Part shown: piece after piece, positions 1,150 through 31,306 of the stretch
How the letters are laid out: every line of letters begins with the position of its first letter
Numbering within the stretch: the first letter of the stretch is position 1
Assembly (NCBI GenBank): GCA_016699995.1
Contig: CP064996.1
Span: forward strand, 138,357 to 202,356
DNA length: 64,000 bases
Direction of reading: 5' to 3'
Source of the DNA: a bacterium
GTDB lineage: Bacteria > Patescibacteriota > Doudnabacteria > UBA920
The notes under the pieces: model-generated
Seen by the model: the letters and a program-made list of their open reading frames with translations, nothing else
The model's database searches: none
What the model was told of the DNA's origin: nothing
Translations under genes and position numbers: made by a program

Positions 1150-1172
1150 TATTTGTGCTATAATAGTTACAC

Positions 1173-1256
1173 ATGTCTAAAAAAACTCTATTCTTCTGCA
1201 CAGCCATCGCCATCGCCGCTGCATTAACTTTCCCAGCGATCGCATTGTTAGCTTAA
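1173..1256 (+). CDS. Candidate micro-ORF encoding a 27-aa hydrophobic peptide (MSKKTLFFCTAIAIAAALTFPAIALLA)
   Basis: An extended -10 (TGcTATAAT, about 1156-1164) lies 8 nt upstream of the ATG, which suggests leaderless expression. An imperfect hairpin followed by a T-run lies downstream (about 1262-1292). The ORF is below the 60-aa cutoff of the ORF track. Confidence 0.25.
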   Translation: MSKKTLFFCTAIAIAAALTFPAIALLA

Positions 1257-1323
1257 TTTTAAAATCCTTTTGCTTCGCATGAGGATTTTTTAAATAAAAT
1301 TAATCAATAAACATCATAAAATC

Positions 1324-1923: not shown

Positions 1924-1933
1924 TTTAGAAATC

Positions 1934-1964
1934 AAAAGACGCACGAAATGTGCGTCTTTTTTAT
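1934..1964. terminator. Rho-independent terminator between convergent genes, probably bidirectional
   Basis: Stem AAGACGCAC / GTGCGTCTT with a GAAAT loop, followed by TTTTTTATTT. It lies between the stop at 1923 (+) and the typA stop at 1984 (-). Confidence 0.7.
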
Positions 1965-1983
1965 TTGGTGATAACTATTTAGT

Positions 1984-3813
1984 TTATAGGCCGCGCTTTT
2001 CTTTCTTACGGTCGTTAGGGTCGAGCAAACGTTTGCGGATGCGGATGCTTTGCGGTGTGACTTCTACAAGCTCGTCTGCGCCGATGTATTCCAAAGCAAA
2101 GTCTAAGGTAACTTCGCGAGGCGGAACCAATATAATGCCTTCATCGCTGCCCGAGGCTCGCATGTTTGTCAGTTTCTTGCCTTTGCAGATATTTACTTCT
2201 ATATCTGCTTCCAATGCATTTTTCCCAACTACTTGTCCCAAGTAAACTTCGGTGGCTGGGCCAACAAACATGATGCCTCGATCTTGAGCATTGTTGAGGC
2301 CATAGGCCGTACTGGTGCCGGACTCCGAAGCGATTAAGGATCCGTGCTGGTTGGTGGAGGTATCGATTTCGTGTACCGGGCGGTAGCTGTCAAAGAGATT
2401 GTTGATAATAACCGTACCTTTGGTGCGGGTAAGCAGTAAGTTTTTTAAACCAATTAAACCGCGCGTTGGGATAATGTATTCGGCGTGAATTTCTCCGCTC
2501 GGAGTGGTCTCCAAAATTTGCATCTCCCCGCCGCGCTTGCCGATTTCTTCTATGACGGCGCCTTGGTGTTCGCTTGGTACATCCACAGACAGGAATTCGT
2601 AAGGCTCTTTACGGACACCGTCTTCTTCGTGGAAAATAACCTGAGGCTGAGAAACTTGCATTTCGAAGCCTTCGCGGCGCATGGTTTCTATTAATACTGC
2701 CAAGTGCAGTTCGCCGCGTCCGGACACTAAGAATGAGTCGCCGGTAGCTTCTTCTACGCGCAGCGCCACGTTGGTTTCTAGTTCTTTGAAGAGGCGGTCG
2801 CGGATTTGCCTGGATGTGAGCAAATTACCTTCGCGTCCGGCAAATGGGGAAGTGTTTACCCCAAATGTCATTTTAATGGTCGGCTGTTCGATCTCGACTG
2901 GAGGAATTTGGCGCGGATTAGCTGTATCGGTAATAGTGTCGCCGATTTGCACGCCGTCGAAACCGCCAATCGCTACAATGTCTCCTGCTACGGCCTGGTC
3001 GACTTCTACGGTGTTTAAGCCTTCGTACATTAATAAGGAGGAAGCTTTGCCGTTGGTTTTGGTTCCCTCTCGAGAAATTAAAGTGATGTTTTGGGCTCTC
3101 GCCACGCTGCCGGAAGAAATTTTACCGATACCGATTTTACCTTTGTAGTTATCGTAACGCAGCGCTAAAACGAGCATAGCGAATGGGTCATCGGAGATGG
3201 TTGGTGCGGCAATATTGGAAACGATGGCTTCGAATACCGGAGTGATGTCTGGCGCCGAATTGGATTGAATTTTTTGCAGAGTTTCGGACGCATCGAGGCC
3301 GGCAATACCTTTGATGCCGCTGGCATAAAGAATAGGAAAGTCGAGCTGTTCTTCTGTTGCACCCAAAGACACGAACAGGTCGAAAGTCTTGTTAACTACT
3401 TCGTCAATCTGCGCCTCTGGCTTGTCGATTTTATTGATTACAACAATGGCTTTGTGGCCCAGTTCCAGCGCCTTTTTTAAAACGAACTTAGTCTGGGGCA
3501 TCGGACCTTCCTTGGCGTCTACTAATAATAGTACGCCGTCGGCCATTTTAAGGGTACGCTCAACTTCGCCGCCGAAGTCTGCGTGACCCGGGGTGTCGAC
3601 AATATTGATTTTGACCTCGTTGTAAATAAGAGAAGCATTTTTGGCGGTAATGGTGATGCCTCGTTCACGCTCGATGTCGCCGGAATCCATAATCAAAACA
3701 TCGCCGGCATCTTTAACGGTTTGGGTTTGTTTGAGCATGGCGTCTACTAGGGTGGTTTTGCCATGGTCAACGTGAGCGATGATGGCAACGTTTCGGATAT
3801 TGTCGCGGGTCAT
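1984..3813 (-). CDS. typA: Translational GTPase TypA/BipA
   Basis: 609 aa. N-terminal 'IRNVAIIAHVDHGKTTLVDAML' G1 motif, plus DTPGHADF, NKIDK and the EF-G-like domains II-V typical of BipA. Confidence 0.9.
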   Translation of the reverse strand: MTRDNIRNVAIIAHVDHGKTTLVDAMLKQTQTVKDAGDVLIMDSGDIERERGITITAKNASLIYNEVKINIVDTPGHADFGGEVERTLKMADGVLLLVDAKEGPMPQTKFVLKKALELGHKAIVVINKIDKPEAQIDEVVNKTFDLFVSLGATEEQLDFPILYASGIKGIAGLDASETLQKIQSNSAPDITPVFEAIVSNIAAPTISDDPFAMLVLALRYDNYKGKIGIGKISSGSVARAQNITLISREGTKTNGKASSLLMYEGLNTVEVDQAVAGDIVAIGGFDGVQIGDTITDTANPRQIPPVEIEQPTIKMTFGVNTSPFAGREGNLLTSRQIRDRLFKELETNVALRVEEATGDSFLVSGRGELHLAVLIETMRREGFEMQVSQPQVIFHEEDGVRKEPYEFLSVDVPSEHQGAVIEEIGKRGGEMQILETTPSGEIHAEYIIPTRGLIGLKNLLLTRTKGTVIINNLFDSYRPVHEIDTSTNQHGSLIASESGTSTAYGLNNAQDRGIMFVGPATEVYLGQVVGKNALEADIEVNICKGKKLTNMRASGSDEGIILVPPREVTLDFALEYIGADELVEVTPQSIRIRKRLLDPNDRKKEKRGL

Positions 3814-12695: not shown

Positions 12696-12724
12696 TTGAC
12701 ATTTTTGGTATTTTCGGTTATAAT
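12696..12724 (+). promoter_or_regulatory. Sigma70-like promoter (TTGACA-N17-TATAAT) in the mqo/icd divergent intergenic region
   Basis: TTGACAtttttggtattttcggtTATAAT lies about 35 nt upstream of the isocitrate dehydrogenase SD (GGAGG). Confidence 0.5.
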
Positions 12725-12758: not shown

Positions 12759-13850
12759 ATGGGACAAGAAATTGTTACAAATAATGCTAATTCCAGCGCA
12801 GGGGCCGAAAAGGTTTATGCGATTACAGTCATCCCCGGAGACGGGATAGGACCGGAGGTAGTTGCCGCAACTCAAAAAGTTTTAGAGGCAACCGGTCTAA
12901 ACTTCGACTGGCAGATTCAGTTGGCTGGCGCGCATGCTTATCATCATCTTGGTGATCCGCTGCCGCAGCAGACACTGGATTCGATCCGTCAAAATAAAGT
13001 CGCGCTCAAAGGCCCGACTCATGTGGCGAAAGGTGCTAATTACGGCAGCATTAATGTGGATCTTCGTAAACAGTTTGATCTGTACGCGAATGTTCGGCGA
13101 TCTTATGCTTATACCGGAGTGCCTGCCAGGTATCCTGGTGTGGACTTAGTGGTCTTTCGCGAGAATGTGGAAGACTTTTATTGCGGAACAGAACGTTTTG
13201 TTGACGAGGCTGAGACAATAGCTGAGGCTACTGGCGTGATTACCATGCCAGGTTCGGAAAGAATTTTCCGGGCTGCATTCGAGTACGCTCGCAAGAAGGG
13301 GCGAAAAACAGTGACAGCAGTTCATAAAGCCAACATCTTCCCCAAATTTTACGGGACATTCTTAAATGCTGGCCGCAGGGTCGCTGAACAGTATCCGGAA
13401 ATCGAGTTTAACGATCGCATTGTCGATAACATGGCTATGCAGCTCGTTGTTAATCCGCATCAATTCGATGTGATTGTGTGTACGAATTTATTCGGCGACA
13501 TCATTTCCGACTTATGCGCAGGATTGGTTGGTGGTCTGGGCGTTGCTCCGGGTGCTAACATCGGAGATGACTGCGCGATCTACGAAGCAGTACATGGTAC
13601 GGCTCCGGATATTGCCGGTAAAAACATCGCTAATCCCACCGCGCTAATTTTGAGCGGAGCAATGATGCTTTCACATCTGGGAGAAGAGCAAGCGGCAAGA
13701 GCAGTGCGCAAGGCCTTGATAGGCGTTCTTGCCGAAGGCACTCACGTCACGGCGGATATTGCAGTCAGCACTCCAGTCGGGACTGAGCAGATGGCTTCTC
13801 ACATAGCTAGCCGGGTCAGAAATTTGAGCATGGCAGCAGCACGTGCGTGA
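12759..13850 (+). CDS. icd: Isocitrate dehydrogenase (isocitrate/isopropylmalate dehydrogenase family)
   Basis: 363 aa. '[11 protein letters not shown]', 'DLYANVRR' and '[10 protein letters not shown]' motifs. The DLYANVR motif favours IDH over LeuB. Confidence 0.7.
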
Positions 13851-14721: not shown

Positions 14722-14728
14722 TTCTACA

Positions 14729-14760
14729 GCCGGCACGAAATATGTGCCGGCTTTTTTATT
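14729..14760 (+). terminator. Rho-independent terminator
   Basis: GCCGGCAC-GAAATAT-GTGCCGGC followed by TTTTTTATTTT. Confidence 0.8.
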
Positions 14761-14823
14761 TTCAACGCATCGCAGCTTTTGAGGTATTACTCATAAAAAT
14801 CTAAAATCTTTTTGTATTATTCG

Positions 14824-14852
14824 TTGACATTAAGCCAATTTTATGATATTAT
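14824..14852 (+). promoter_or_regulatory. Sigma70-like promoter TTGACA-N17-TATTAT upstream of the HTH/giant-protein operon
   Basis: TTGACAttaagccaattttatgaTATTAT. A perfect 7-bp inverted repeat GTATCGG-ATAG-CCGATAC follows at about 14865-14882. Confidence 0.5.
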
Positions 14853-14939
14853 AAAATCAGAAAAGTATCGGATAGCCGATACAGTATTGCTCAAACGAGC
14901 AATTACAGTTTCGAAACAAAAATAAAAACAAAATCGAAT

Positions 14940-15188
14940 ATGTCAGAGCATGAAAAGCAGAAGTTATTGGCATCTGGTAAGCTTGTATCCATTTCTCAGG
15001 TGGCAGAGCAGACTCCTTACAGCGCCGAATACATCTCCTTGCTTGTAAGAAAAGGGAAGATCCCAGCGATAAAGATTACGCGTGATTGGTTAACTACACA
15101 TCAGGCGGTTTCTTTGTATGTAAAAAAGCAAAAGGAAAAGCATAAACAACTTTTAAAGCGATTTGATCGGGTTGGGAGGGGAGTATGA
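14940..15188 (+). CDS. Small HTH-type DNA-binding protein (82 aa), putative regulator
   Basis: 'ISQVAEQTPYSAEYISLLVRKGKIPAIKI' resembles a MerR/excisionase-type HTH. Its stop TGA overlaps the ATG of the giant gene (ATGA). Confidence 0.5.
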   Translation: MSEHEKQKLLASGKLVSISQVAEQTPYSAEYISLLVRKGKIPAIKITRDWLTTHQAVSLYVKKQKEKHKQLLKRFDRVGRGV

Positions 15189-18100
15189 ACATCAAGCAAG
15201 CTTTAAGATATTTATTAGTCGTTGCTTCGATTGTGGCCGCAGGATTTTTCCTTACTTTGTCTCCCAATAAATCGCTTGCTTCTGACCAAGAAGTCTTAAA
15301 CACTTCTCAAACCGAGTCATCGACACTGGAAGAGAGTAATATCTCGGATGCTGCCTCTTTAGGAAGTAATTTAGATACAGATCAGGAACCCCAACAAGAT
15401 CCAGTAGTCGCAGAGGAAACAGCCGATCTCGAGCAAAATGTGAGTTCTGAACAAGTTCCTGATACTGCTTCGGAAACCACTCAGAACGAGCTAGATCAAG
15501 AGCCTCAACAGCCCACCACAGTCGAAGAAAACAATCCTGCTTCTGACCTCGGGCAGGGTCCTGCTGATGATAGTAGCGAAGAAAATATTGTTGAATCATC
15601 AGATCAGAATCAGGCGTCTGCACAAATTGATCTCACTCCTACTGTCATTGAACAAACAACTGCCAATGGAAAGATTGTTGTGATCTCTGCGACAGAGGAG
15701 CAGGAAGCAGTACATCAGTTCTTAGACGTGCCGGTGAAGACAGAAATCCCAGAAATATTCAGGGTAGGTCAGGAGACTTTAATTAAAATCAAATGGCAAA
15801 ATAATAATGGTCAGGATATGCAGTTCGTTGCATATGACGATGACGAGGACGGATATATTGATCACGTTGCTTGGGTGGTTCCTCATTTATCTGTTCAGAC
15901 GTTCGAAATAATTTTTATTTCTGATGCACTACTTTTGGATGCTGATAAAAACACAATCTTAGATATTTATAATCAAGTTAATGCTCGCGACTACGATTAC
16001 GCTACTGTTATCGATGGTCAGTTTGTAAGAGTAACATTCGAACAGCTGCTTAACAGCACAAAGGATATTACGCTGTTTGCAAAAGCTACAGACCCAAGCC
16101 AACCTGCCATTATCGAAGTTTACACTACTGGCGGCGAGCTGCTCGCAACATTTTCTGAAATCGCCGAAGACGGTAAATATAGAATCCTGCTTTCGAACTT
16201 ACAGAATCCAGCTTCGGTATTCGATTTAAGAATTATCGGAAGTGCGGATATAGATTTTATAGTTGACCCTCCGCTTACTGCGTATTGGGTGGGAGGCAGC
16301 GGTGACTGGTCTGATGCTGCTAATCACTGGGCGACTACATCTGGAGGAACCCCAAATGCAGCAAATGCACCAGATGCAACCAGTAATGTTGTCTTTGATG
16401 CTTTGTCTGGCTCATCTACAGATGTAATCAATATTGACGTGGCGGCAACAGTTGGTTCGTTAACCATTAATGGCTATGTAGGAACAATTAAGCAAAATGC
16501 AGACTTAATCATTACTAACTCCGGTGGTCAGTCTGGTGACTATTCTCAGGTAACGGCCGCGACTTGGACCACACCAAATCCGGCTTCTGATACTTTCTCT
16601 GCAACTGGAAGCTTCTCCATTAGTGCCGGTATATTTAGACGATTTACTGGAACCGGAATTAGTGTAGATCCATTTGTAATCTACGATGTGTACGGTTTGC
16701 AAGCTATGAAGACGAATCTGGCCAATTCTTATAAGCTTAGCGGTGATATTGATGCGTCAGTAACTTCTGGATGGAATGCAGGCCAAGGATTTATTCCGGT
16801 TGGAGATAACGTTAACAACTACACGGGCAATTTTGACGGAGCCGGTTTTACGATTAGCGATTTATATATTAACTCGACGACTTTAAGTTATGTCGGGCTT
16901 TTTGGCTATACACTTGGCAGTATTCAGAATCTTGTTTTGGCTGATGCGTCTATCACTGGTATTGGTACCATTGGTGCTAATGGTTCTGACGGAGCCGCAG
17001 GTACTAATGGGACTACCCCAACAGCAGGCGGAACAGGCACAGTAGGTTCTGCTGGCGGCGCTCTATATATAGGAGGTTTGGCTGGTTATAACGCTGGCAC
17101 GATTACTAATGTTAGCGTATCTGGAACAGTTACAGGAACAGGCGGAACAGGTGGTAACTCTGGTAATGGTGGTGCTGGTGGTAATACTACTAGCGGGGCT
17201 ACTGCTGGCGGAGCTGGCGGAACCACGTTGGCTGGTGGAGCTGGCGCAGTTGTATATAGTGGCGGCTTAATTGGATATTCTGCACAAGGAAGCATCGAGA
17301 GCTCTAGTTCTTCGGCTGCCGTAACAGGAACAGGCGGAACAGGTGGTAACTCTGGTAATGGTGGTAATGGTGGTAACAATGCCGGAACAGGAGCAGGTGG
17401 TGCGGGCGGAGGAGCTGGCGCAGGCGGAGCCGGTGGAATTAGCTATGCCGGCGGTTTGATTGGGTGGGTTAACTCTGGAATGGTTGTCACATCTTTTTCT
17501 ACAGGAAGCGTCACAGCAATCGGCGGCGCAGGCGGTTTAGCTGGAGCTGCTGGTTCTGGCGGTAATCCAGGGACGGCGGCAGTTGGTGGCGCAGGCGGCG
17601 CAGGCGGCGCTGGTGGCGCAGGCGGTGCTAGCTATGCCGGCGGATTAGTCGGTGTGAACTTGGGTAATGTTAGATACGCTTCGTATGCAACTGGAAATGT
17701 CATCGCCACAGGTGGTACTCCTGGCAACGGATCGGCTGGCGCAGCAGGGACCGCTAGTACAGTTGCAACTACTGGTACTGCTTCAACTGGCGGCGCAGGC
17801 GGTGCGGGCGGTGCAGGAGGTGTTGCCTATGCAGGTGGCTTGGTTGGTCAGAACAGCCCCGATGGAGTAATTAGCGGTGTAACCAGTCCCAATTATGCGA
17901 CAGGCAATGTTACTGCAACAGGATCTAATGGGCAGAACGGTAATGTTGGCGGTACAGGCGGAAGCGCAGCAGCAGGAACAGCTCATACCGGGGGTACAGG
18001 CGGAGCTGGGGCTGTAGGCGGGGCAGGAGGTGGCGCATACGCCGGTGGATTAGTCGGTATTAACTCTGGGGTGATTTTAATTTCAAATTCTAATACAGGA

Positions 18101-21100
18101 TTAGTAACTGCTACGGGTGGTAATGGTGGAATTGGCGGTACAGGCGGAACTGGCGGTGCAAAGGGTTCAAGTGGTGCTAACGGCGCTGGTGGTGCATCGG
18201 GAACAGGCGGTTCGGCTAATGTAACTTCAGCATACGCCGGCGGATTAGTCGGGAGCAATGTCGGTGCAATTCAAAATTCATTCTCCACTAATGCAGTGTC
18301 CGGTACGGGCGGTAATGGCGGTAATGGCAGTAATGGAGTTTCTGGTTTAGCTAACTTGGCTGGCATCGCTGGTGGTACCGGTGGGGCAGCAGGTGTTTTA
18401 TATATTGGAGGTGTCGCAGGGAATAACACCTTAACAATCACAGGAAGTTACCACACTACTGGAGCAGTAACGGGCACTGCTGGTGCTGGCGGATCAGCCG
18501 GGGTTGGCGGAGCAGGTGGTACGGGCGGACTAGCCGGGGCAGGTGGTACCGCTACAATAGGGGCAATTATTTATGCCGGTGGAGTAGTTGGCCATAACTC
18601 GGGTATTTCTTTAATAAACAATTATTCAACCGGTACTGTTACTGGTACAGGCGGTGCTGGAGGATCTGGTGTTACAGGCGGCAACGGAGGTACTAGTCTT
18701 GCAGGTATTGCTGGCACTGCCGGAGCTGCAGGAGGTATTGCTTATGTTGGGGGTGTTGTTGGTTTTACAACTAATGGTGAAATATTAAGTTCTTATTCAA
18801 CGGGTGATATCGTAGCTATTGGCGGCGCAGGCGGCGCAGGCGGTGCCGGTGGAATCGGCGGAACAGGTGCTGCTTCTACAACGGGTGGAGCAGGCGGCAC
18901 AGGTAGCGCAGGCGGCGCAGGCGGTGCTTCCTTTGGAGGCGGTGTAATAGGTCACTATGTTCTAGGACCTATCGAGGCAGTTTACAATACTGGGAGTGTA
19001 ACCGTGACTGGCGGCGCCGGTGGCGCAGGCGGCGCAGGCGGTAATGGCGGCAACGGTGGAACAAATGCCATTGGCGGTATCGGCGGCGCAGGTGCTGCTG
19101 GCGGTGCGGGAGGCGTTGCTAGTGCCGGGGGCTTAGCCGGACAAAGTACTGGTGTTATTCAGGGTGTGTCATATTCAACAGGAAATATTACTGCAACTGG
19201 TGGAACCCCAGGGGATGGTGGTAACGGCGGCGATGGTGGTGCTACGACTGCTACATTTAACTCAACTGCAGCAGCAGCAGGCGGCAATGGCGGAGCAGGC
19301 GGTGCCGGAGCGATTGCCTATGCCGGTGGGTTAGTCGGAAATAACGCTAATATTATTTTGAATTCTTATGCTTCAGGAGTAATAACCGCAACCGCCAGTA
19401 ATGGTAAAAATGGGGCTAACCCTGGTGCCGCTGGTAGCGGCGCAGCAGGTGGTTCTAGTCATGCGGGCGCAATTGGTGCAACAGGCGGCGCTGGTGGGGC
19501 AGGTGGGGCATCATACGCCGGCGGATTGGCAGGAATAAACACATCGACTATTTCAAATTCATATATCCAAACTGGCAGTGTAACTGTAACTGGTGGCAAC
19601 GGCGGTAATGGCGCAAACGGTGGCGCAGGTGGTATTGGGGGTACAAATGCAATTGGCGGGGTTGGAGGTATTGGTGGCGCAGCTGGTATTGGTGGCGCAG
19701 CTTTTGGCGGCGGCGCAGCTGGTCATAATAATACTGGCGGTGTTATTCAAAATGGCACTTATTCTGATGTAGACATATCCTCGATAGGTGGTAATTCTGG
19801 CACCGGCGGCACTGGCGGCGCCGGGGGAATTAGGGCCATCGGAGGTGCCGGCGGCGCGAGCGGTGGGGCAGGTGCAATTGCTTACGCAGGAGGTTTGGTA
19901 GGATTGAATACTGCAGGCATCTCCGGATCTTATGCTACAGGTGACGCGACTGCAACAGGCGGCATTGGTGGGTCGGCTGGTTCTGGCGGCAACGGCGGCA
20001 GTGGTACAACGGGAGCAGCTGGGGGAGCTAACGGTGGAACAGATGTGGCTGCTAGCGTATTGCTTCGTGCAGGCGGCGCTGCTTATTCTGGTGGATTGGT
20101 TGGGTATAACATAACTAATGGTATTATTCAGGGCACCTCGTATGCAACGGGCGATGCAGCTGCTACAGGTGGCGCAGGCGGTGCTGGGGCAACAGGAGCT
20201 AATGGTGGAAATTCATCAGGCGCGGCTGCAGGCGGCGCTGGGATTGCCGGCATCAGCGGTGGCACCGGCGGCGTCGGTGCCGCAGGCGGACTAATCGGTT
20301 GGAATATCGGCGTCGTGAGTGCAGATTCTTATGCGCAGGGTAATGTTTCTGCTACAGGTGGAGCTGGCGGAGCAGCAGGCGGATCTGGCAATCAGGGTTC
20401 TAGTGGTGCTGGTAATGCTGGCAGCGTAGGAGTTGCAGGTGGCGCCGGAGGTGTTGGCGGTGCTGCGTATTCAGGCGGCGTAGTCGCGTACAATGGAGTA
20501 TTGGGTTCTACTATTAGTACTTCTAATAATATTGGTACGGTAACCTCTATTGGCGGAGCAGGGGCAAATGGAGCAAGTGGCGGAACTGGCGGTACCGGCG
20601 GCAGTTCTGCCGGGGCGATTGGCGGCGCAGGCGGCAACGGTGGCGCAGGCGGCGCAGGCGGAGCTGCGTATGGAGGAGGGGTTGCTGGGTTAAATATTGG
20701 TTTAGTCACGGATATTGCTTACACCATTACTACTATAACTGTCACCGGCGGCGCGGCAGGCAATGGCGGCGCAGGCGGCCATGGTGGGGCAAGTGGAAAT
20801 ATTTCTGGTGGTACATCTGCAACTGCTGGCGCCGGTGGCGCCGGTGGCGCAGGCGGAGCTGCATATATTGGTGGTTTGGTTGGAGACAACTCCGGAGTAA
20901 TTCACAATTCAACAGTTATCGGCAGTTTAACAGGGATTAATAAAAGTGGAGGTGATGGCGGAACTGGTGGAACTGGTGGAAGCGGCGCGGCAGGCACGGG
21001 TGGACATAATGGCGGCATCGGCGGAGTAGGTGGCGCAGGTGGTGCGAGTGGGGCCTTGTTTATGGGGGGGATTGCCGGTCAAGGAAATGGTAATATATCA

Positions 21101-24100
21101 GATTCCAGCAGTACCGGTGGTACTATCACTGTGGCGTTGTCTGTTGGTGGAGGAACTGGAGGCAACGGCGGATCAGGCGGTGCTTCTGGTACAGGCGGTA
21201 GAAACGGGACCGGCGGCGCTGGCGGAGCAGGTGGAGCAACCGGTGCAATTTTTGTTGGTGGGGCAATTGGGCATAATTCTTTAGCTAATGTTTCTTTTGA
21301 TAATATATTTTCTACAAATCATGTTTTAGTTAATGCTGATTCCGGCGGTACTGGCGGAGCCGGTGCTAACGGGTCTAATGGTGCGCTTGGCGGAGTAGGT
21401 GGCGCAGGTGGTTCTGGTGGTATAACCCAGCCAACTTCGCTTAGTGCTGGCGGGTTAATTGGGGATATTGTCGGTGCGGGTTCATCTGTGCTGAATTCTT
21501 ATGCAACAGGGAATGTCACTATAACCGGTGATACCGGCGGTGTCGGCGGAGACGGAGGTTCGGGAGGAGCTGGTGTCGGCGGTATGACCGGAGGAGCTGG
21601 GGCTGTGGGAGGAGCTGGTGGTGCAGGCGGCTATGCTTATGGCGGCGGTTTGATTGGTTTTACTACGACAAACATATTTGTGGGCAATTCGTATGCGACT
21701 GGCAGTCTTACTGTTGTCGCGGGCAGCGGCGGCGCGGCTGGCAATGGCGGCGCAGGTGGCGCAGGCGGTTCGTCGTCTGTTGGCGGCGCAGGAGCAATTG
21801 GTGGCGCAGGCGGTGTCGGTGGGATTTCTTTTACGGGTGGACTAATCGGTGCTGCTGTCACTGGTGTAGTAACTAATTCCTATTCTACTGGGACTGTGTT
21901 AGGTACCTCCGGGAATGGTGGAAGTTCTGGCAACGGCGGCAACGGCGGAGCTGGAGGCAGCGGCGCGATCGGTGGTATTGGTGCTGTGGGAACAGTAGGT
22001 GCTGCTGGTGGCGCAAACTTTACAGGCGGTCTAATTGGTGATCATGCTCTTACTATTGAAACTTCAAATCATGTTACTGGAGCGGTGACTGGTATTTCTG
22101 GCAACGGCGGTAACGGCGGGGCAGGCGGGAGCGGGGGAGCTTCGGGTGCCATTACTAATGGAACAGCGGCAGCTGGCGGGGCAGGTGGCGCTGGCGGTGT
22201 TGGTGGAGCACTCAATGTAGGTGGTCTTGTAGGCAGAAGCAGTGCTGCAACAGGGATTATTAATAATTCATACGCAACTTCTGACGTTAACGCTACAAGC
22301 GGTAACGGCGGTAACGGCGGATCCGGTGGCGCTGGCGGTGATGGTTCGGCAGGAACTAACCATGCAGGCGGAGCCGGCGGTGTCGGTGGGGCAGGCGGCG
22401 CAGCAGCTGTAACGTTAGCTGCTTCATTGCAGATCGGTGGCCTGGTTGGTCAAAATGCCTTAGGTACAATTACTAATTCTTATACTCAAACCGGCACCGT
22501 TACTGCTAGTGGAGGATCAGGCGGAGCCAGTGCTCAGGGCGGTCTAGGCGGGACCGGAACAGGAACTGCATTATATGGTATCAGTGGAGCCGGCGGCGCA
22601 GGCGGCGCAGGCGGCGCAGTTTATGCTGGCGGATTAGTAGGTTACTCTTCTGGAGTAATTCAAGAAGGTTCTTATTCTAAAACAAGTATAGAGATCACCG
22701 GCGGAACCGGTTCGAATGGTTCGGCTGGCAGAAGCGGGGCATTAAATAGCGGTGTGGCTGGAAGTGCCGGCGGAGCCGGCGGAGCCTCAGGTTTGGCTTA
22801 TATCGGAGGTTTAGCCGGATACTCAACATCGGACATTATTTTATCGTACGCGAGTTTTCATGCTGGGTCAGGCAAAGGAAATATAATTTTCCATGGCGGT
22901 ATAGCCGGTAGTGGCGGCAACGGCGGGGATGGCGGCTCTGGCTTAACTGCTGGTAGTGTTGGAGGCGCAGGCGGCGCAGGGGGAGCCGGTGGCGTGGAGT
23001 CGGGAACGTTCGTAGGAGGTCTAGTCGGGTACAGTTCTGCTACAGGAGTAATAACTTCGTCCTATTCTGAAATTTTAACTATATCAGGTAATGAACAATC
23101 TGATGGCAACGGCGGCAGCGGCGGCAACGGTGGCGCAGGCGTTGGTTCCTTTATTGGTGGTGTAGGCGGAGCAGGCGGTGCCGGCGGCGCAGGCGGTGTT
23201 CGTGGGTTCGGTGGTTTAGTAGGTGATAACTTGGGTACCATTCAGTCCGATTCATATTCATCAGTGTCTATAAATATTAATGGACGAAACGGCGGCAACG
23301 GCGGCAGCGGCGGCAACGGCGGCGCTTCCGGTTCTTCGATTTCGACTGGAACTGCTGCTGCAGGTGGTGTTGGTGGCGTCGGGGGTGCAGGTGGTGCTAC
23401 GTATGGGGGCGGATTAGTAGGTCGCATGACGGGTACTACTCAACTTTTGCAAATTTTAAATTCATACGCTACAGGTTCTGTGACGGTGGTTGGCGGCAAC
23501 GGCGGCAACGGCGGCAACGGCGGAGCAGGTGGCGATGGTTCGGCTGGTACTTCGAGTCATATCGGCTCGGTCGGTGCTCTTGGCGGGGTTGCTGGTGTTG
23601 GTGGAGAGGCGGACGCCGGTGGGTTAGTTGGGATTAGCAACTTTACCAGCGGGACCAGTAACTTTTTATATACATATGCAACTGGAAATGTGTCTGCTAC
23701 AGGCGGTAATGCGGGGACCGCGGGCGTATCTGGCAATGGCGGAGCATCCAGAGCAACTATTACAGGCGGCGCAGGTGGTGGTGCGGTAGCGGCAGCAGCC
23801 GGGGGTGCTAGCTATGCTGGCGGTTTGATTGGTAATAATAGAATTACTACTGGTTTAAGTGACGCTATTGCGTCGTATGCAACAGGGAATGTCTCTGCTA
23901 CTGGCGGCAATGGGAGCAATGGTAGCGTTGGAGGCAATGGTGCAAATGGTGCGGCTGGTGGTGTTGGCGGTGCAGGCGGCGCTGGTGGTGCCGGGGGTGC
24001 CGGAGGCGAGTCTAATGCAGGTGGATTGTTAGGATACGGAAGTGTAACAACCGGTGGTAGTAAGTACTTCAACTCATATTCTACTGGGAACGTGGTTTCA

Positions 24101-27100
24101 TCTACAGGCGGCAATGGCGGCAATGGCGGTAGTGCAGGCACTGCTGGCAACGGCGGTTCTGGTGCGGCCGGTGGTGCGACAGGCGCAGGCGGCGCAGGCG
24201 GCGCAGGCGGCGCCAGTTATGCAGGCGGCCTCACGGGTCAGTTAGTGGGAGCTGTTTTGATCACTACCAGCTATTCTACTAGAGATGTACTTGCTACAGG
24301 CGGAACAAGCGGTAATGGAGCAGCTGGCGTGAACGGCAGTAGTGGAGGCTCTGGCGCAATTGGCGGTGCAGGCGGCGCTGGTGGTGCGACAGGCGCAGGG
24401 GGCGCTAGCTATGCTGGTGGTTTGATTGGTAGCAGTGCCGGTATTATTGGTGGAATTTCTTATGCTACAGGAAACGTGACTTCTAATGGAGGCCAGACTG
24501 GAACTCCAGGCGCAGGCGGCGCAGGCGGCGCTAGTGGGAATATTTCTGGATCAACAGCAGCAACTGGCGGCGCAGGGGGCGCAGGCGGCGCTGGTGGTGC
24601 TAGTTATGCGGGCGGTTTGGTAGCAAACAATGCTGCGACAGGTATAATTTCTTATTCATACGCTACAGGTTCTGTGACTTCTTTAGGAAGAAATGGTGCT
24701 AATGGAGCTAATGCCGGTAGCGGGGGAGATGGATCTCTAGGCACGGGCAATCATGCCGGTGGCGCAGGCGGAACTGGCGGCGCAGGCGGCGCAGGCGGCG
24801 CTAGTTATTCGGGCGGGCTAATTGGTAATAACATCAATACCACGAATACAACCACTGCTAGCTATTCGACCGGTAACGTAGTAGGAACGAGTGGAACCGG
24901 CGGTAGTGGAGGTGTTGGTGGCAACGGCGGACTTCCAGGAAACGTTGGAGTCGGCGGTGTTGGCGGCATAGGCGGTGTTGCCGGAGCAGGCGGTGTTTTA
25001 TACACTGGCGGTTTTGTAGGTTACAACAATGGAACAATTCAACAATTTTCATATTCAACAGGTAGCGTTTTGGGTACTGGCGGTGCCGGCGGAGCTGGAG
25101 GAACCGGCGGAATCGGAGCAAATGGCTTGAATGGAACAACAGCTAATGGCGGTAATGGTGGAGCAGGCGGCGCCGGCGGCGCCGGCGGCGCAGGTGCTGT
25201 GGTTTATGGCGGCGGTTTTACTGGATGGAACAATACTGCACGTACAATCAGGGACTCTTCTTCTAGTGGAAATGTCACATTAACCGGAGGAACCGGAGGT
25301 AATGGAGGAGCCGGAGGTAATGGAGGAACCGGAGGTAATGGTGTAGACGGCGGGACTGGTGGAACTGGCGGCGCAGCTGGGGCCAGAACTGCTGGTATAG
25401 TCGGTGGAATAGTATATGGCGGCGGTTTTGCTGGTTATAATGTCGGTACTTTGTTCGCAAATTATTCCGAAGGGGATGTGGTAGTTACCGGCGCTGCTGG
25501 TGGCGCAGGTGGTTCGGGCGGAACAGCAGGTAATGGCGGCGACGGCGGCGCGACAGGTGCCGGAGGGATAGGCGGTGCTCAAGGTGCTACCGCAGCAGGC
25601 GGCGCAGGCGGCGTTTTATATGCAGGCGGTTTTGCCGGATACAATTTTACGGCAGGTCTAATTCAGTATTCTTGGTCATCAGGTGACGTTACTACTACCG
25701 GAGGTAATGGCGGCGCAGCGGGTATTGCAGGAACTTCTGGTAATGGCGGCAACGGCGGCACGCTTGCAGGCGGCGCAGGCGGCGCAGCTGTTGCAGGCGG
25801 CGCAGGCGGCGCAGGTGGAGCCAGTTTTGCCGGGGGATTCATCGGTGCCTCTTTAACAACCGGCAGTTTTGATACAAGTTATTCTTACGGTAACGTGACT
25901 ATGACAGGTGGTAACGGTTCGATGGGTGGAACTGGCGGGGCAGGCGGCAATGGCGGTATCGGGGGATCGGGCGGTTCTGGCAATGGCGGTAACGGTACTG
26001 TGGGAGGTGTCGGTGGTGTTGGTGGTGTCGGTGGAGCAGTAACGGGTGGAGGTTTGGTCGGTCAAAACACTGGAGCGATTACTAACGCTTACTCTCTTGG
26101 AAATGTAACTGCGACCGCCGGAACTCCTGGGAATGGTGGCACTGGCGGTACTGGCGGCAATGGTGGCGCTGCTGGAGGCGGTTCCGTGGGTACCAATGGC
26201 AATGGCGGTGCAGGTGGAGCGGGTGGCGCAGGTGCTAACGCTCATGTTGGTGGTTTGCTTGGAAGCCATGCTACATCTGTAATAACAAATGTTTATTCGT
26301 CAGGTTTTCCTTCTGGGATTAAGTCAAATGGAGCAACTGGCGGTGCAGGTGGAATCGCTGGTACTGGCGGCAGTGGGGGCAGTAATGGCGCCACAGGTGC
26401 TACTGGTTCTTCTGCTTCGACTCAGTATTTAGGCGGTATGACAGGTTTGGCTTCTAGTGGTACTTATGTGTCTACCTATTGGGACACAGATACTTCTGGT
26501 TTTGGTGCAGGAAGTGGTGCAGGAAGTGGTGCAGATCCATTAGGAATGACTGGCAAGACTACTGCCGAGATGGAGCAAGAAGCAACTTTTGTTGGGTGGG
26601 ATTTTACGTCTCTTGTGTGGGATATTGAAGAGAATAATACTTACCCTCATTTTAGTTATCAGACCGTTCCAGGCAGTCCTATTAATGTTGTGGCTGTAGC
26701 CGGTAACGGGGAAGCAACTATTACCTTTAGTCCTCCAGCTGATAATGGAAGCTCCACTATCACTTCTTACACCGTGACATCTAACCTTGGTCACACCGCT
26801 ACTGGCGGTTCTTCGCCTATAACCGTAACCGGGCTTACTAACGGCGTGACTTATACTTTCACAGTCACGGCTACAAATTCTAGCGGCACTAGTATTTCTT
26901 CTGCAACCAGCAACGCCGTGACTCCAGCCACAGTGCCAGACGCTCCAACTGGAGTGAGCGCCGTGCATGGAAACGGCCAGGCTACAATTAGCTTTACTCC
27001 TCCAGTTGATAACGGCGGCAGCGCAATTACCGGTTACACCGTGACATCTAACCTGGGTCATACAGCTACTGGCGGCTCTTCGCCTATAACCGTAACCGGC

Positions 27101-30100
27101 CTCACTAACGGCGTCACCTATACTTTTACCGTAACGGCTACTAATGCGGTCGGGCCAGGAGCTGCATCGGGGACCAGCAACGCCGTTACTCCGGCGACTG
27201 TGCCGGGTGCCCCAACTGGAGTTAGCGCTGTTCACGGGAACGGAGAGGCTACAGTAACATTTACTCCGCCCGCATCAAATGGCGGCTCCACTATCACTTC
27301 TTACACCGTGACATCTAACCTGGGCCATACAGCTACTGGCGGTTCTTCGCCTATAACCGTAACCGGGCTTACTAACGGCGTGACTTATACTTTCACAGTC
27401 ACGTCTACAAATGCAGAGGGTACAGGCGTAGCTTCTGGCACCAGTAATTCGATTGTGCCATCTACGGTTCCAGATGCCCCAACAGATGTAAGTGCAGTAG
27501 CGGGCAATGGTCAGGCTACAATTAGCTTTACTCCTCCAGTTGATAACGGCGGCAGCGCAATTACCGGTTACACCGTGACATCTAACCTGGGCCATACAGC
27601 TACTGGCGGTTCTTCGCCTATAACCGTAACCGGCCTCACTAACGGCGTGACTTATACTTTCACAGTTACAGCCACGAACATCAATGGTACCGGATCGGCG
27701 TCTGGTGCATCCAATTCGGTTACTCCGTCTACTATTCCAGATGCCCCGACAATCGGTACTGCTACTAGAGGCGATGGGGAAGTGGTGATTACCTTTACTC
27801 CGAATGGCAATGGCGGTTCGGCTATCACAAGCTACACCGTAACATCTAACCTTGGGCACACGGCCACTGGCGGTTCGTCTCCGATCACAATTACCGGCTT
27901 AACCAATGGTGTAACTTATACTTTTACCGTAACAGCTACCAACGCTAATGGTACCAGTATAGCTTCTGCAGCTAGCAATGCCGTGACATTTGCTTCGGCT
28001 CCCGATGCTCCTACTAGCGTGACTGCTGTAATGGGTAACGGTGAAGCAACTATTAGCTTCACTCCTGGAGCCAATAACGGTGCCGTGATTACTTCCTATA
28101 CAGTAACTTCCAGCGGCGGACAGACGGCAACGGGCGGGGCATCACCAATTACAGTTACTGGATTAACAAATGGCACATCCTACACATTCACTGTAACTGC
28201 CACCAATGCAGTAGGGACTAGCGCTGCCTCTAATGCCAGTAATTCTGTTACCCCTTTGTCTGTACCAGGCGCTCCGACCGGAGTTTCTGCGGTTCGCGGA
28301 AATGGCGAGGCGACAATAACCTTTAGCGCTCCTGCGGATAACGGCGGCTCTGCAATTACTAACTACACCGTAACATCTAACCTTGGCCACACCGCTACTG
28401 GCGGGTCATCTCCTATTACTATCACAGGTTTAACCAATGGCGTTACCTACACATTTACCGTAACAGCTACTAACTCTTATGGAACAAGCGTGGCATCTGG
28501 CACAAGTAATTCCGTCACTCCAGCTACAGTTCCAGGCGCTCCGACCGGAGTTTCTGCGGTCATGGGCAATGGCGAGGCGACAATAACATTTAATGCCCCA
28601 GGCAGCAACGGAGGCAGTCCTATAACTTCGTATACCGTCACTTCTAACCTGGGTCACACGGCCACAGGCGGTTCTTCTCCAATTATCATTACAGGACTCA
28701 CTAATGGTACCGCCTATACTTTCACTGTGACCGCAACCAATGCAATCGGTACAGGATCGGCTTCTTCTGCGTCTAATTCGGTCACTCCCGCCACAGTTCC
28801 AGGCGCTCCGACCGGAGTTTCTGCTATAGCGGGAAACGGCGAAGCGACAATAACCTTTAGCGCTCCTGCGGATAATGGTGGCGCTGCAATAACTTCGTAC
28901 ACTGTCACTTCCAACCTTGGGCACACGGCCACTGGCGGTTCGTCTCCTATCACAATTACCGGCTTAACCAATGGCGTAACTTATACTTTTACCGTAACAG
29001 CTACTAACGCAGCGGGAACCGGCGCTGCATCTAGTACTACAAATTCCGTAGTTCCTACCAGCGTTCCGGGGGCACCCACTTCTGTTTCTGCGACTGGCGG
29101 CAATGGTCAGGCCACCATCAGCTTTACAGCACCGGTGAGCAATGGCGGTTCGCCGATAACTTCTTATACAGTAACATCTAACCTTGGGCACACGGCCACT
29201 GGCGGCAGTTCGCCAATCACTATTACCGGGCTTACTAACGGAACTACATACACCTTTACTGTGACTGCTACAAACGCCGCGGGCACAGGCAGTGCTTCTG
29301 GAACTAGCAATTCAGTGGTTCCAGCAACAGTTCCAGGAGCCCCTACTAGCGTTGTGGCTGTAGCAGGCGATGGAGAAGCAACTATCACTTTCACAGCACC
29401 GGCTTCGAATGGCGGTTCTGCTATCACAAGTTATACAGTAACCTCCAACTTGGGCCATACCGCCACTGGGGGTAATTCTCCAATAACTTTGACTGGCTTA
29501 ACTAATGGTGTATCTTACACCTTTACAGTCACGGCTACTAACGCAATAGGGACCGGTTCTGCTTCTACTGCTAGCAATTCCGTTACTCCTGCGACCGTGC
29601 CTGATGCTCCAACTAACTTAGCCGCTACTACGGGCGATACCCAGGTTAGTCTGACTTGGTCAGCCCCAGCATTCAATGGTGGATCCGCAATCACCAGTTA
29701 CACTGTGACTTCTAACATTGGTGGACATTCTGCGACAGTTGCGGGCACCTCGGCCACTATGACCGGCTTAACCAACGGCGTAACTTATACATTCACCGTA
29801 ACTGCCACCAACGCAATCGGCACGAGCACAGCTTCCGGAACAAGCAATTCTGTTACCCCGGCGACCGTTCCGGGTGGGCCTACAAACCTTGCGGCAGTTA
29901 TCGGCGACAGTAGTGTAGACTTGTCGTGGTCTGCCCCGGCAAGCAATGGCGGCTCGGCAATTACAGATTACGTAATCGAATACCAGTTGACTACCGGCGG
30001 CTCTTGGTCCGTATTTGCTGACGGCGTAAGTACCAGCACCTCGACCACAGTTACAGGGCTTTCCAACGACAATTCCTACGATTTTCGAGTTAGCGCCAAG

Positions 30101-31272: not shown

Positions 31273-31306
31273 CAACACCGCCATAAAGGCGGTGTTTGTT
31301 TTATTA
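31273..31306 (+). terminator. Rho-independent terminator after the giant gene
   Basis: AACACCGCC-ATAAA-GGCGGTGTT followed by TGTTTTATT. Confidence 0.7.

What the first reader, a model, noticed from the sequence alone, without database searches (positions are those of the whole stretch)
14820..15190. Promoter, palindromic operator-like site and translationally coupled HTH gene directly upstream of the giant gene
A near-consensus TTGACA-N17-TATTAT promoter lies at 14824-14852. A perfect 7-bp inverted repeat (GTATCGG-ATAG-CCGATAC) follows at about 14865-14882. An 82-aa HTH-like protein follows, and its TGA stop overlaps the ATG of the 16-kb gene (ATGA). A dedicated small regulator or chaperone coupled to a giant adhesin gene suggests that surface-protein expression is controlled by an autoregulatory or switchable mechanism.
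Basis: seen in the sequence. Interest (0 to 1): 0.55.

Follow-up and report, generated by a model that had tools for sequence, protein, structure and literature searches.

The report
Self-regulating head of giant surface-protein operon

Summary
All sequence features are present exactly where reported. Comparison with 87 related loci shows they are functional, not chance. The promoter TTGACA-17-TGnTAnnnT is kept in 28 of 29 Saccharibacterial relatives. It always ends 12-14 nt before the box AAAGTATCGG-WTAG-ccgAta, and the window carries the only perfect palindromic copy of that box.

The 82-aa ORF is under strong purifying selection and models as a MerR/excisionase-type winged helix-turn-helix. 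Its stop overlaps or abuts a long signal-peptide ORF in its closest relatives. In more distant Patescibacteria the same domain is fused, through one transmembrane helix, to the N-terminus of proteins of up to thousands of residues. So the small gene is a detached cytoplasmic domain of the giant protein family.

The TATCGG box travels with this domain, in both orientations. It even occurs upstream of archaeal Fic proteins that carry the domain C-terminally. This argues for a DNA operator bound by the domain. I infer negative autoregulation of a two-gene, terminator-bounded operon. Binding itself is untested.

The leader also holds an undescribed co-varying stem-loop and an A-rich box. I found no evidence for a switch. 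I found no description of this cassette in the literature or Rfam.

The parts
14728..14762 (+). Intrinsic terminator of the upstream 98-aa gene. It marks the 5' boundary of the transcription unit.
   Evidence: 10-bp stem with 7 G-C pairs, followed by TTTTTATTTT.
14824..14829 (+). -35 hexamer TTGACA.
   Evidence: TTGACA or TTGACT is present at the same relative place in 28 of 29 related loci.
14844..14852 (+). Extended -10, TG-A-TATTAT. The transcription start is inferred at about 14859-14861.
   Evidence: The TG and the 17-nt spacer are kept in all 29 loci examined. The start site is inferred from the usual spacing and was not measured.
14865..14882 (.). Operator-like box GTATCGG-ATAG-CCGATAC, with core 10-mer TATCGGATAG at 14866-14875. 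It lies at about +5 to +23 of the transcript. The half-site centres are 11 bp apart.
   Evidence: The consensus of 27 loci is aAAAGTATCGGaTAGccgAta, with an invariant left arm and a right arm matching 4.3 of 7 on average. The box is about 100 times enriched next to genes carrying the HTH domain, in both orientations and also in archaeal loci. It is the only exact match in the 64-kb window.
14886..14903 (+). Second stem-loop of the leader, ATTGCTC-AAAC-GAGCAAT. It is the local version of a conserved hairpin whose loop in relatives is CAAAAYTA.
   Evidence: The leader folds at -22.9 kcal/mol with z = -6.15. The hairpin was found in 24 loci. All 9 pairs show compensatory changes, and 85.5% of cells are paired against 58% in shuffles and 26-40% in slid controls. 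In a permutation of arms between loci, 0 of 10000 reached the observed value. No Rfam family matches.
14913..14933 (+). A-rich box GAAACAAAAATAAAAACAAAA just upstream of the small ORF, which has no Shine-Dalgarno sequence.
   Evidence: The box is conserved before the ATG in nearly all related loci. It is unique in the window, with 0.2 matches expected by chance. About half of the window's genes also lack an SD, so its absence here is not unusual.
14940..15188 (+). 82-aa winged helix-turn-helix protein of MerR/excisionase type, with a long C-terminal helix (residues 54-79).
   Evidence: Translation. Weak profile hits to HTH_17, TIGR01764 and PHROG excisionase families. AF2 pLDDT is 87.6. The best Foldseek matches are P2 Cox, BldC, Xis, RdfS, TraN and RacA. 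dN/dS is 0.03-0.15. 14 columns are invariant, including TPYSAEY.
15174..15183 (+). Shine-Dalgarno sequence GGGAGGGGAG of the giant ORF, lying inside the 3' end of the small ORF.
   Evidence: It is conserved, together with ATGA or TAA-n-ATG junctions, in the orthologous loci.
15185..31267 (+). Giant ORF of 5360 aa. It has a signal peptide with an SLA|SD cleavage-like site, a stretch of about 3000 aa that is about 35% Gly and repetitive, at least 13 Fn3 domains, and a C-terminal repeat region.
   Evidence: Orthologues are 59-80% identical over the N-terminal parts in L001-L013.
31274..31296 (+). Intrinsic terminator 7 nt after the giant ORF. It marks the 3' boundary of the two-gene operon.
   Evidence: 9-bp stem with 6 G-C pairs and a T-rich tail.

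Best explanation
The interval 14820-15190 is the control head of a two-gene operon bounded by terminators (about 14.86-31.3 kb). The organism is a Saccharibacteria-like member of the Patescibacteria (CPR).

A strong extended -10 sigma-70 promoter starts transcription at about 14860. Directly at about +5 to +23 lies an operator, consensus AAAGTATCGG-WTAG-CCGATA. This window has the perfect palindromic version, with half-site centres one helical turn apart.

The first cistron encodes an 82-aa MerR/excisionase-type winged-HTH protein. I propose that it binds this operator, probably as a dimer through its long C-terminal helix, and blocks RNA polymerase. That would give negative autoregulation limiting transcription of a very costly 16-kb surface-protein gene.

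The giant ORF is translated from its own strong SD inside the end of the small ORF, coupled through the ATGA overlap.

In evolutionary terms the small protein is the detached cytoplasmic N-terminal domain of a large family of Patescibacterial surface proteins. Their architecture is HTH, then one TM helix, then a large ectodomain. The promoter-operator-leader-HTH unit is a portable cassette found ahead of unrelated large secreted proteins.

Shown here: the conservation, the fold class, the synteny, the fusion and the motif-domain co-occurrence. Inferred: DNA binding by this protein, repression as the sign of regulation, and the exact start site.
For: 1. Promoter and box are conserved and rigidly phased in 28 of 29 loci, while the promoter spacer sequences differ.

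2. The box co-occurs with the domain.
- The 10-mer is at 1.25 per kb in the 400 nt upstream of the domain, against 0.012 per kb elsewhere.
- The 7-mer is present in 67 of 87 loci, against 0-5 loci for scrambled controls.
- There is usually one site per locus, just upstream of the gene.

3. The box acts at the DNA level.
- In Parcubacteria it occurs in both orientations, upstream of the -10 as well as downstream.
- One arrangement there is the everted pair ATCCGATAC-N3-GTATCGGAT.
- In Nitrososphaeria it abuts the start of Fic genes. Those genes share only the C-terminal GTPYSAEYLSLxARxG domain with the bacterial proteins.

4. Fold. The AF2 model has pLDDT 87.6. It superposes on DNA-bound BldC, Pukovnik Xis, P2 Cox, RdfS, TraN and RacA at 1.6-2.5 A over about 48-58 residues, with probability 0.9-0.99.

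5. The HTH turn and recognition-helix region, and three wing residues (K45, R48, W50), are invariant. dN/dS is 0.03-0.15.

6. Synteny and fusion.
- The stop overlaps the next long ORF by 4 nt or 1 nt in 20 of the 30 closest genome loci and in all of L001-L007.
- The domain is fused to ORFs of 700 to more than 2000 aa in distant relatives.
- A TM-like segment follows the domain in 25 of 27 fused proteins examined. In L022 it starts at residue 84, where the window's gene is split.
- 2569 representative proteins carry the domain. In all of the best 150 it lies within the first 200 residues, and lengths reach 6890 aa.

7. The downstream proteins are non-homologous among paralogous cassettes.

8. 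Terminators bound the operon.
Against: - There is no binding, expression or start-site data.
- Profile matches to HTH_17 and TIGR01764 are below their curated cut-offs (19 bits against 27 and 28.8). Foldseek E-values are weak (0.09-0.3), as expected for a 50-residue core.
- In all Saccharibacterial loci the box has one orientation and sits at the very 5' end of the transcript. That would also fit an RNA element.
- The palindrome is degenerate in the closest orthologues, where the right arm matches 3 of 7.
- A DNA-pattern scan of metagenomes returned mostly sites without the domain: 76 of 80. One of them carries the identical palindrome with no HTH within 1.4 kb (L166). A wider or different use of the box therefore cannot be excluded.
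- A membrane-tethered, fused domain binding DNA is unusual, though ToxR and CadC do so.
Confidence: 0.6

Rival explanations
1. The conserved box, the hairpins and the A-rich tract act as an RNA leader. Possible roles are 5'-end stabilisation of a 16-kb mRNA, translational control, or recruitment of a processive antitermination factor. On this view the HTH-like domain does not bind the box. It would serve another role on the cytoplasmic side of the membrane protein, for example a protein-protein contact as in RodZ.
For: - The box has a fixed orientation and a fixed 12-14 nt distance from the -10 in 29 loci, so it forms the 5' end of the transcript.
- In the window it folds into a 7-bp hairpin, and the whole leader folds with z = -6.15.
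- The next stem-loop shows clear covariation, so at least part of the leader is a structured RNA.
- A long gene plausibly needs mRNA protection or antitermination (inference).
Against: - The first hairpin is not conserved. Right-arm complementarity is 3-5 of 7 in most loci.
- In Parcubacteria the box occurs in both orientations and upstream of the -10. It is also found in reverse orientation at short archaeal Fic genes, which share only the HTH domain.
- No Rfam family matches.
Confidence: 0.2
2. The small protein is a recombination directionality factor (excisionase) and the repeated boxes are its arm-type sites. The giant-gene cassette would then be, or would derive from, a mobile or invertible element.
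For: - The fold class and weak profile hits point to excisionases: TIGR01764, PHROG excisionase families, Xis, RdfS and Cox.
- Half-sites occur in direct and inverted arrangements.
- Orthologous cassettes have different upstream neighbours.
- An inverted repeat matching 17 of 21 flanks the region, at 14772-14792 and 15334-15354.
Against: - No integrase or recombinase lies next to the cassette in the window or in the loci inspected.
- The domain is fused to a TM helix and ectodomain in many lineages.
- The box is phased with a promoter.
- The flanking inverted repeat is at chance level, and its right arm lies inside the giant ORF.
Confidence: 0.05
3. The arrangement is ordinary and partly coincidental. 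There would be a good promoter, a chance palindrome and a generic small HTH gene, with no specific relation to the giant gene.
For: Each feature alone is not significant in the window. There is no excess of promoter-like sites. ATGA overlaps and genes without an SD are common here.
Against: - The whole arrangement is conserved across dozens of loci that have diverged to about 50% protein identity.
- The motif is about 100 times enriched.
- The fused architecture exists in distant relatives.
Confidence: 0.03

Closest known systems
BldC (Streptomyces) and phage/ICE excisionase-type wHTH proteins (P2 Cox, Pukovnik Xis, RdfS)
   Same: They are small MerR-like winged-HTH domains and are the best structural matches. 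From established knowledge, these proteins bind variable arrays of direct or inverted short repeats and can repress promoters; P2 Cox is both a repressor and an excisionase.
   Different: - Sequence similarity is below family cut-offs.
- The protein here has an extra long C-terminal helix.
- No recombinase partner is present.
- The domain belongs to, or is coupled to, giant membrane or surface proteins.
Membrane-tethered one-component regulators (ToxR, TcpP, CadC)
   Same: In the fused relatives the architecture is a cytoplasmic DNA-binding domain, one TM helix and an extracytoplasmic domain. A site at the gene's own promoter would allow the ectodomain to influence transcription.
   Different: - The DNA-binding domain is MerR/excisionase-type, not OmpR/PhoB-type.
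- The ectodomains are hundreds to thousands of residues of adhesin-like repeats.
- In this window the domain is a separate protein, and the giant protein has a cleavable-looking signal peptide.
Fic proteins with a C-terminal winged HTH (e.g. Shewanella SoFic, PDB 3zec)
   Same: The same HTH domain, including the GTPYSAEYLSL motif, sits at the C-terminus of archaeal and bacterial Fic proteins. The same TATCGG/CCGATA boxes lie at their gene starts.
   Different: The partner domain differs (Fic against a giant ectodomain), the domain is at the other end of the protein, and the genes are short.
RacA (B. subtilis) and RodZ
   Same: RacA has a MerR-like wHTH and links specific DNA sites to the membrane or cell pole; it is a structural match. 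RodZ is a bitopic protein with a cytoplasmic HTH followed by a TM helix.
   Different: RacA binds many chromosomal sites and has no TM helix or ectodomain. The RodZ HTH is Xre-type and binds MreB, not DNA. Neither is encoded with its site at its own promoter.
Leader elements of long surface-structure operons (RfaH ops, LoaP leaders, lambda nut boxB)
   Same: It is a conserved leader element at the head of a very long surface-protein transcription unit, with a stem-loop carrying an A-rich loop.
   Different: There is no sequence or Rfam match. The TATCGG box is not strand-specific outside Saccharibacteria. No NusG paralogue was examined.

Membership tests
MerR/excisionase-type winged HTH (Pfam HTH_17 PF12728; NCBIfam TIGR01764) | Profile match at or above the curated cut-off | tested here: not met
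   HTH_17 scores 19.0 bits against a cut-off of 27. TIGR01764 scores 19.1 bits against 28.8. The alignment covers the whole profile (positions 2-50 of 51 and 3-48 of 49).
MerR/excisionase-type winged HTH (Pfam HTH_17 PF12728; NCBIfam TIGR01764) | Fold: strand, helix, turn, helix, two-stranded wing | tested here: met
   The AF2 model has pLDDT 87.6, with helices at 18-22 and 29-38 and strands at 44-46 and 49-52. The top Foldseek matches are Cox, BldC, Xis, RdfS, TraN and RacA, at rmsd 1.6-2.5 A and probability 0.9-0.99, but with E-values of only 0.09-0.3.
MerR/excisionase-type winged HTH (Pfam HTH_17 PF12728; NCBIfam TIGR01764) | Sequence-specific DNA binding | not testable with these tools
   The evidence is only comparative: the domain co-occurs with the TATCGG box.
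Excisionase / recombination directionality factor | Encoded next to a cognate integrase or recombinase, with att sites | tested here: not met
   No recombinase domain is present in the neighbouring ORFs of the window or in the called genes of L001-L007.
Negatively autoregulated operon with an operator at the start site | Regulator gene in the operon, and its site overlapping the promoter or start site | tested here: met
   The box lies 12-14 nt after the -10 in 29 loci, and the HTH gene is the first cistron. This is geometry only.
Negatively autoregulated operon with an operator at the start site | The regulator binds the site and lowers transcription | not testable with these tools
   This needs EMSA or footprinting and reporter assays.
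Membrane-tethered transcription regulator (ToxR/CadC-like) | DNA-binding domain, single TM helix and extracytoplasmic domain in one polypeptide | tested here: not met
   In the window the domain is a separate 82-aa protein. The feature is met in relatives: 25 of 27 fused proteins have a TM-like segment after the domain.
Membrane-tethered transcription regulator (ToxR/CadC-like) | OmpR/PhoB-type winged-helix DNA-binding domain | tested here: not met
   The profile and structural matches are all MerR/excisionase-type.
Translationally coupled gene pair | Stop and start codons overlap or abut, with an SD inside the upstream ORF | tested here: met
   ATGA lies at 15185-15188 and GGGAGGGGAG at 15174-15183. 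The junction types are conserved as ATGA, TAATG or TAA-n-ATG. Coupling itself was not measured.
Any described RNA family (Rfam 15) | Covariance-model match to the leader | tested here: not met
   There is no relevant match at the gathering score or at E<=10 in the window. There is none in 12 related loci.
Phase-variable (invertible or slipped-strand) promoter switch | Flanking inverted repeats with a recombinase, or a simple repeat tract in the promoter or the 5' coding region | tested here: not met
   The only flanking repeat matches 17 of 21, has one arm inside the giant ORF and is at chance level. No recombinase is present. No repeat tract is seen.

The most novel reading that the evidence does not exclude
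Patescibacteria may have a phylum-wide class of bitopic large or giant surface proteins whose first 60-80 residues form a cytoplasmic winged HTH. That domain would bind an operator at about +5 of the protein's own gene.

The domain is the first part of the chain to leave the ribosome, while the polymerase is still within a few hundred bases of the promoter. It could therefore repress in cis, co-translationally, so that only one or a few polymerases at a time enter a 16-kb gene. The locus would also be tethered to the membrane.

Alternatively or additionally, the domain could relay host contact sensed by the ectodomain to the promoter, in the manner of ToxR. The window would show the version in which the domain has been split off as a diffusible first cistron.
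Probability: 0.25. Interest if true: 0.8.

Novelty: new variant of a known kind. Interest (0 to 1): 0.62.

Why it matters
Patescibacteria (CPR) are a large share of bacterial diversity. They live attached to other cells and have very few recognisable regulators. How they control the large surface proteins thought to mediate host contact is unknown.

This finding gives a concrete, testable regulatory unit:
- a defined promoter;
- an operator of about 19 bp;
- an 82-aa DNA-binding protein that should be easy to purify;
- a co-varying leader hairpin.

The unit recurs in front of many unrelated large surface-protein genes, and 2569 representative proteins carry the domain. It also links three things not previously connected, as far as I could find: an excisionase-like HTH, giant membrane-anchored proteins, and Fic proteins of ammonia-oxidising archaea that share the same domain and the same DNA box.

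In practical terms, the cassette could be used to annotate surface-protein genes in CPR genomes. It could also serve as a native expression and regulation module in the Saccharibacteria that are now genetically tractable.

Tried and rejected
1. **Reverse test.** I scanned metagenome contigs for AAAGTATCGGWTAGMCRA. Only 4 of the 80 returned loci encode the domain. Most hits lie inside unrelated coding DNA. The pattern carries too little information for a collection of that size and only 80 hits are returned, so the test says nothing about a regulon. Two hits are worth noting: L166 has the identical palindrome, and L140 has a 13-bp perfect palindrome of the same box.

2. **RNAalifold on hairpins of unequal loop length.** This gave no structure because of misalignment. 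I replaced it with a loop-anchored permutation test and pair counts on the 13 hairpins with 8-nt loops.

3. **PDB sequence search with the family profile.** It returned only spurious weak hits.

4. **Literature searches.** I searched for the domain in CPR, for giant proteins and for the motif strings. Nothing relevant turned up, and the motif hits were primers.

5. **Programmed frameshifting to fuse the two ORFs.** Rejected. The junction varies (ATGA, TAATG, TAA-n-ATG), a conserved SD precedes the second start, and there is no slippery heptamer.

6. **Invertible switch or mobile element.** Rejected.

7. **Second copy of the gene or the box in the window.** None found.

8. **Pfam on the Gly-rich part of the giant protein.** No family was detected, so I do not assign its repeats to any named family.

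9. **Absence of an SD before the small ORF.** I first took this to be special. About half of the window's genes lack one.
Full report
**1. The observation**

- TTGACA lies at 14824-14829, followed by a 17-nt spacer and TATTAT at 14847-14852. A TG at 14844-14845 makes this an extended -10.
- The perfect inverted repeat is GTATCGG / ATAG / CCGATAC at 14865-14882.
- The 82-aa ORF runs from 14940 to 15188.
- Its stop shares ATGA (15185-15188) with the start of a 5360-aa ORF (15185-31267).

None of this is significant taken alone. The 5-kb scan shows no excess of promoter-like sites. A 7-bp repeat with a fixed spacer is expected a few times in 64 kb. ATGA overlaps also join the three genes immediately upstream. 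About half of the genes in the window lack a Shine-Dalgarno sequence.

**2. The transcription unit**

A strong intrinsic terminator at 14728-14762 ends the upstream gene. Another at 31274-31296 follows the giant ORF by 7 nt. The promoter therefore drives a two-gene operon.

The giant protein has these parts:
- a signal peptide with an SLA|SD cleavage-like site;
- about 3000 residues of roughly 35% glycine in repeats;
- at least 13 fibronectin type III domains;
- a C-terminal repeat region.

No Pfam family was detected in the glycine-rich part. 'Adhesin' is an inference from this architecture.

**3. Origin**

The small protein is identical to a hypothetical protein of an unclassified bacterial MAG with a 943-kb contig. 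Its closest relatives (73-85% identity) are in MAGs labelled Candidatus Saccharibacteria. More distant relatives are spread over Patescibacteria.

**4. The small gene is real and is a winged HTH**
- Pairwise dN/dS against eight orthologues is 0.03-0.15, with synonymous sites saturated.
- Fourteen columns are invariant in 21 sequences, including TPYSAEY.
- Profile matches to HTH_17, TIGR01764 and PHROG excisionase or DNA-binding families cover the whole domain but fall below the curated cut-offs.
- The AlphaFold model (pLDDT 87.6) shows strand, helix, helix, a two-stranded wing, and a long C-terminal helix at residues 54-79.
- The best structural matches are P2 Cox, BldC bound to DNA, Pukovnik Xis, RdfS, TraN and RacA. 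They superpose at 1.6-2.5 A over about 48-58 residues with high probability but weak E-values.

**5. Synteny, and a fusion**

In L001, L006 and L007 the small gene overlaps by 4 nt a giant gene (5376 aa in L001), although the upstream neighbours differ.

Across the loci from the genome collection:
- 20 of the 30 closest have the small ORF overlapping the next long ORF by 4 nt or 1 nt.
- In more distant Patescibacteria the same domain is the N-terminus of a single ORF of 700 to more than 2000 residues.

In 25 of 27 such fused proteins a transmembrane-like segment follows the domain. In L022 it begins at residue 84, which is exactly where the window's genes are split.

An exhaustive profile search finds 2569 representative proteins with the domain. 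In all of the best 150 it lies within the first 200 residues, often in two or three tandem copies. At least 27 of those 150 exceed 1000 residues, and the longest is 6890.

The small protein is therefore the detached cytoplasmic domain of a family of membrane-anchored large surface proteins. The junction varies (ATGA, TAATG, TAA-n-ATG) and keeps a conserved SD. That speaks for termination-reinitiation, not frameshifting.

Only L001-L013 carry orthologues of this window's giant protein. The other cassettes head unrelated large proteins with signal peptides or anchors. The cassette is therefore portable.

**6. Promoter and box**

In 28 of 29 Saccharibacterial loci a promoter TTGACA-17-TGnTAnnnT scores at least 10 of 12. 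Its -10 ends 12-14 nt before TATCGG, while the spacer sequences differ between loci.

The consensus of 27 sites is aAAAGTATCGG-aTAG-ccgAta. This is the window's palindrome, but with an invariant left arm and a degenerate right arm that matches 4.3 of 7 on average against 1.75 by chance. The window has the only perfect copy.

**7. The box goes with the domain and acts on DNA**

In 874 kb of related loci the 10-mer TATCGGWTAG occurs 53 times. Forty-three of these lie in the 400 nt upstream of the domain, giving 1.25 per kb against 0.012 per kb elsewhere. The 7-mer is present there in 67 of 87 loci, against 0-5 loci for scrambled 7-mers.

In Parcubacteria the half-sites occur in both orientations. 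Two direct copies lie upstream of the -10, and an everted pair ATCCGATAC-N3-GTATCGGAT lies downstream.

In Nitrososphaeria and a few other lineages the hits are Fic-domain proteins that carry the same domain at their C-terminus, with the sequence GTPYSAEYLSLxARxG. The same boxes abut their gene starts in reverse orientation. The HTH domain is the only element these loci share with the bacterial ones.

The simplest reading is that the domain binds the box. In the window the two half-sites are 11 bp apart centre to centre, which suits a dimer. They cover about +5 to +23, where a bound protein would block the polymerase. From this I infer negative autoregulation. Neither binding nor the sign of regulation has been measured.

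**8. The rest of the leader**

After the box comes a stem-loop, at 14886-14903 in the window. In relatives its loop is CAAAAYTA and its stem varies in sequence and length.
- On 13 hairpins with 8-nt loops, all 9 pairs show compensatory changes. 85.5% of cells are paired, against 58% in shuffles and 26-40% when the partners are slid.
- Pairing the arms of different loci gives 3.3 contiguous pairs against 6.3 observed. None of 10000 permutations reached the observed mean.
- These sequences were chosen by their predicted hairpins, which favours the structure somewhat.

A conserved A-rich box (14913-14933) precedes the start codon and is unique in the window. The leader folds with z = -6.15. No Rfam family matches it. 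The function of this hairpin is unknown. It is most simply a feature of the 5' untranslated RNA.

**9. Rivals**
- **RNA-only reading of the box.** This fits the Saccharibacterial loci. It does not fit the two orientations, the positions upstream of the -10, or the archaeal Fic loci.
- **Excisionase or mobile-element reading.** This fits the fold class but finds no recombinase. It is also at odds with the fusion to membrane proteins.
- **A switch.** The only flanking inverted repeat matches 17 of 21, reaches into the giant ORF and is at chance level.
- **Reverse scan of metagenomes with the box.** This was uninformative.

**10. Comparison and novelty**

The parts are of known kinds: an extended -10 promoter, an operator at the start site, a MerR/excisionase-type HTH and translational coupling.

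The combination I could not find described. One highly conserved HTH domain forms the cytoplasmic head of thousands of large Patescibacterial surface proteins, fused or split. Its cognate box sits at the gene's own promoter, and the same domain-box pair is shared with archaeal Fic proteins.

I rate it a new variant of a known kind. Its interest is moderate to high because it gives a directly testable regulatory unit in a group with almost no characterised regulation.

Noticed in passing
L048 513-552, L053 5217-5226, L054 1423-1432, L056 5217-5226, L057 and L059 upstream regions: Nitrososphaeria (ammonia-oxidising archaea) encode Fic-domain proteins of about 315 aa. Their C-terminal HTH is nearly identical in its core (GTPYSAEYLSLxARKG) to the Patescibacterial domain. 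Their gene starts are flanked by two to four TATCGG/CCGATA boxes. This points to a shared domain-and-operator pair across the two domains of life.
   Followed up: partly
window 14886-14903; L016, L017, L019, L024, L032, L033 and other leaders: A co-varying stem-loop with the conserved loop CAAAAYTA lies in the 5' leader, followed by the box GAAACAAAAAYAAAA. It matches no Rfam family. The loop's WTAGC resembles the WTAGC inside the operator box.
   Followed up: partly
L166 245-262 and L140 437-468: Metagenome contigs carry the same box as a palindrome without an HTH gene nearby. L166 has exactly GTATCGGATAGCCGATAC, flanked by an A-run and a T-run next to the 3' end of a surface-like gene. L140 has a 13-bp perfect palindrome GTATCGGTTAGC-cgaa-GCTAACCGATAC in a divergent intergenic region.
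   Followed up: partly
L019, L022, L023, L024 (leaders of 135-215 nt): Some cassettes have an extended leader. A second A-rich box and extra hairpins lie between the first box and the HTH start, as if a leader module had been duplicated or a tiny ORF inserted.
   Followed up: no
L047, L085, L086; P0022 and many others: Many family members carry two or three tandem copies of the HTH domain at the N-terminus. Their upstream regions show correspondingly more half-sites.
   Followed up: no
window 33347-35028 (- strand): An ECF sigma factor gene (34447-35028) overlaps by 1 nt a DUF5667 protein gene (33347-34447). This looks like a sigma/anti-sigma pair, 2 kb downstream of the giant gene on the opposite strand.
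   Followed up: no
window 36053-37471 (-), 40144-41793 (-), 46671-47357 (-): Several genes have a TATAAT-like hexamer ending 6-8 nt before the ATG and no SD. This suggests leaderless mRNAs are common in this genome.
   Followed up: no
window 12696-12724: A perfect 12 of 12 sigma-70 consensus promoter (TTGACA-17-TATAAT) lies upstream of the isocitrate/isopropylmalate dehydrogenase-family gene (12759-13850). That gene is chained by 4-nt overlaps to a GNAT acetyltransferase gene and a 98-aa lipoprotein-like gene.
   Followed up: no
window about 16700-25700 (giant ORF residues about 500-3500): About 3000 residues are roughly 35% glycine, arranged in degenerate units of about 60-70 aa (GGLxGYNxGxIxxSYxTGxV followed by Gly-rich runs). 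No Pfam family was detected.
   Followed up: partly
L004 and L005 10333 onward: The gene calls stored for these ENA assemblies do not include the giant ORF downstream of the HTH gene, and they extend the HTH gene to 111 aa from a spurious upstream ATG inside the -10. The ORF is intact in the DNA. This is an annotation artefact that could hide such giant genes in databases.
   Followed up: yes
L074, L078, L079, L083, about 90-60 nt upstream of the -10: A conserved TTGTCCCCAGAAAAA element follows the upstream pair of half-sites in Parcubacterial cassettes. Its function is unknown.
   Followed up: no
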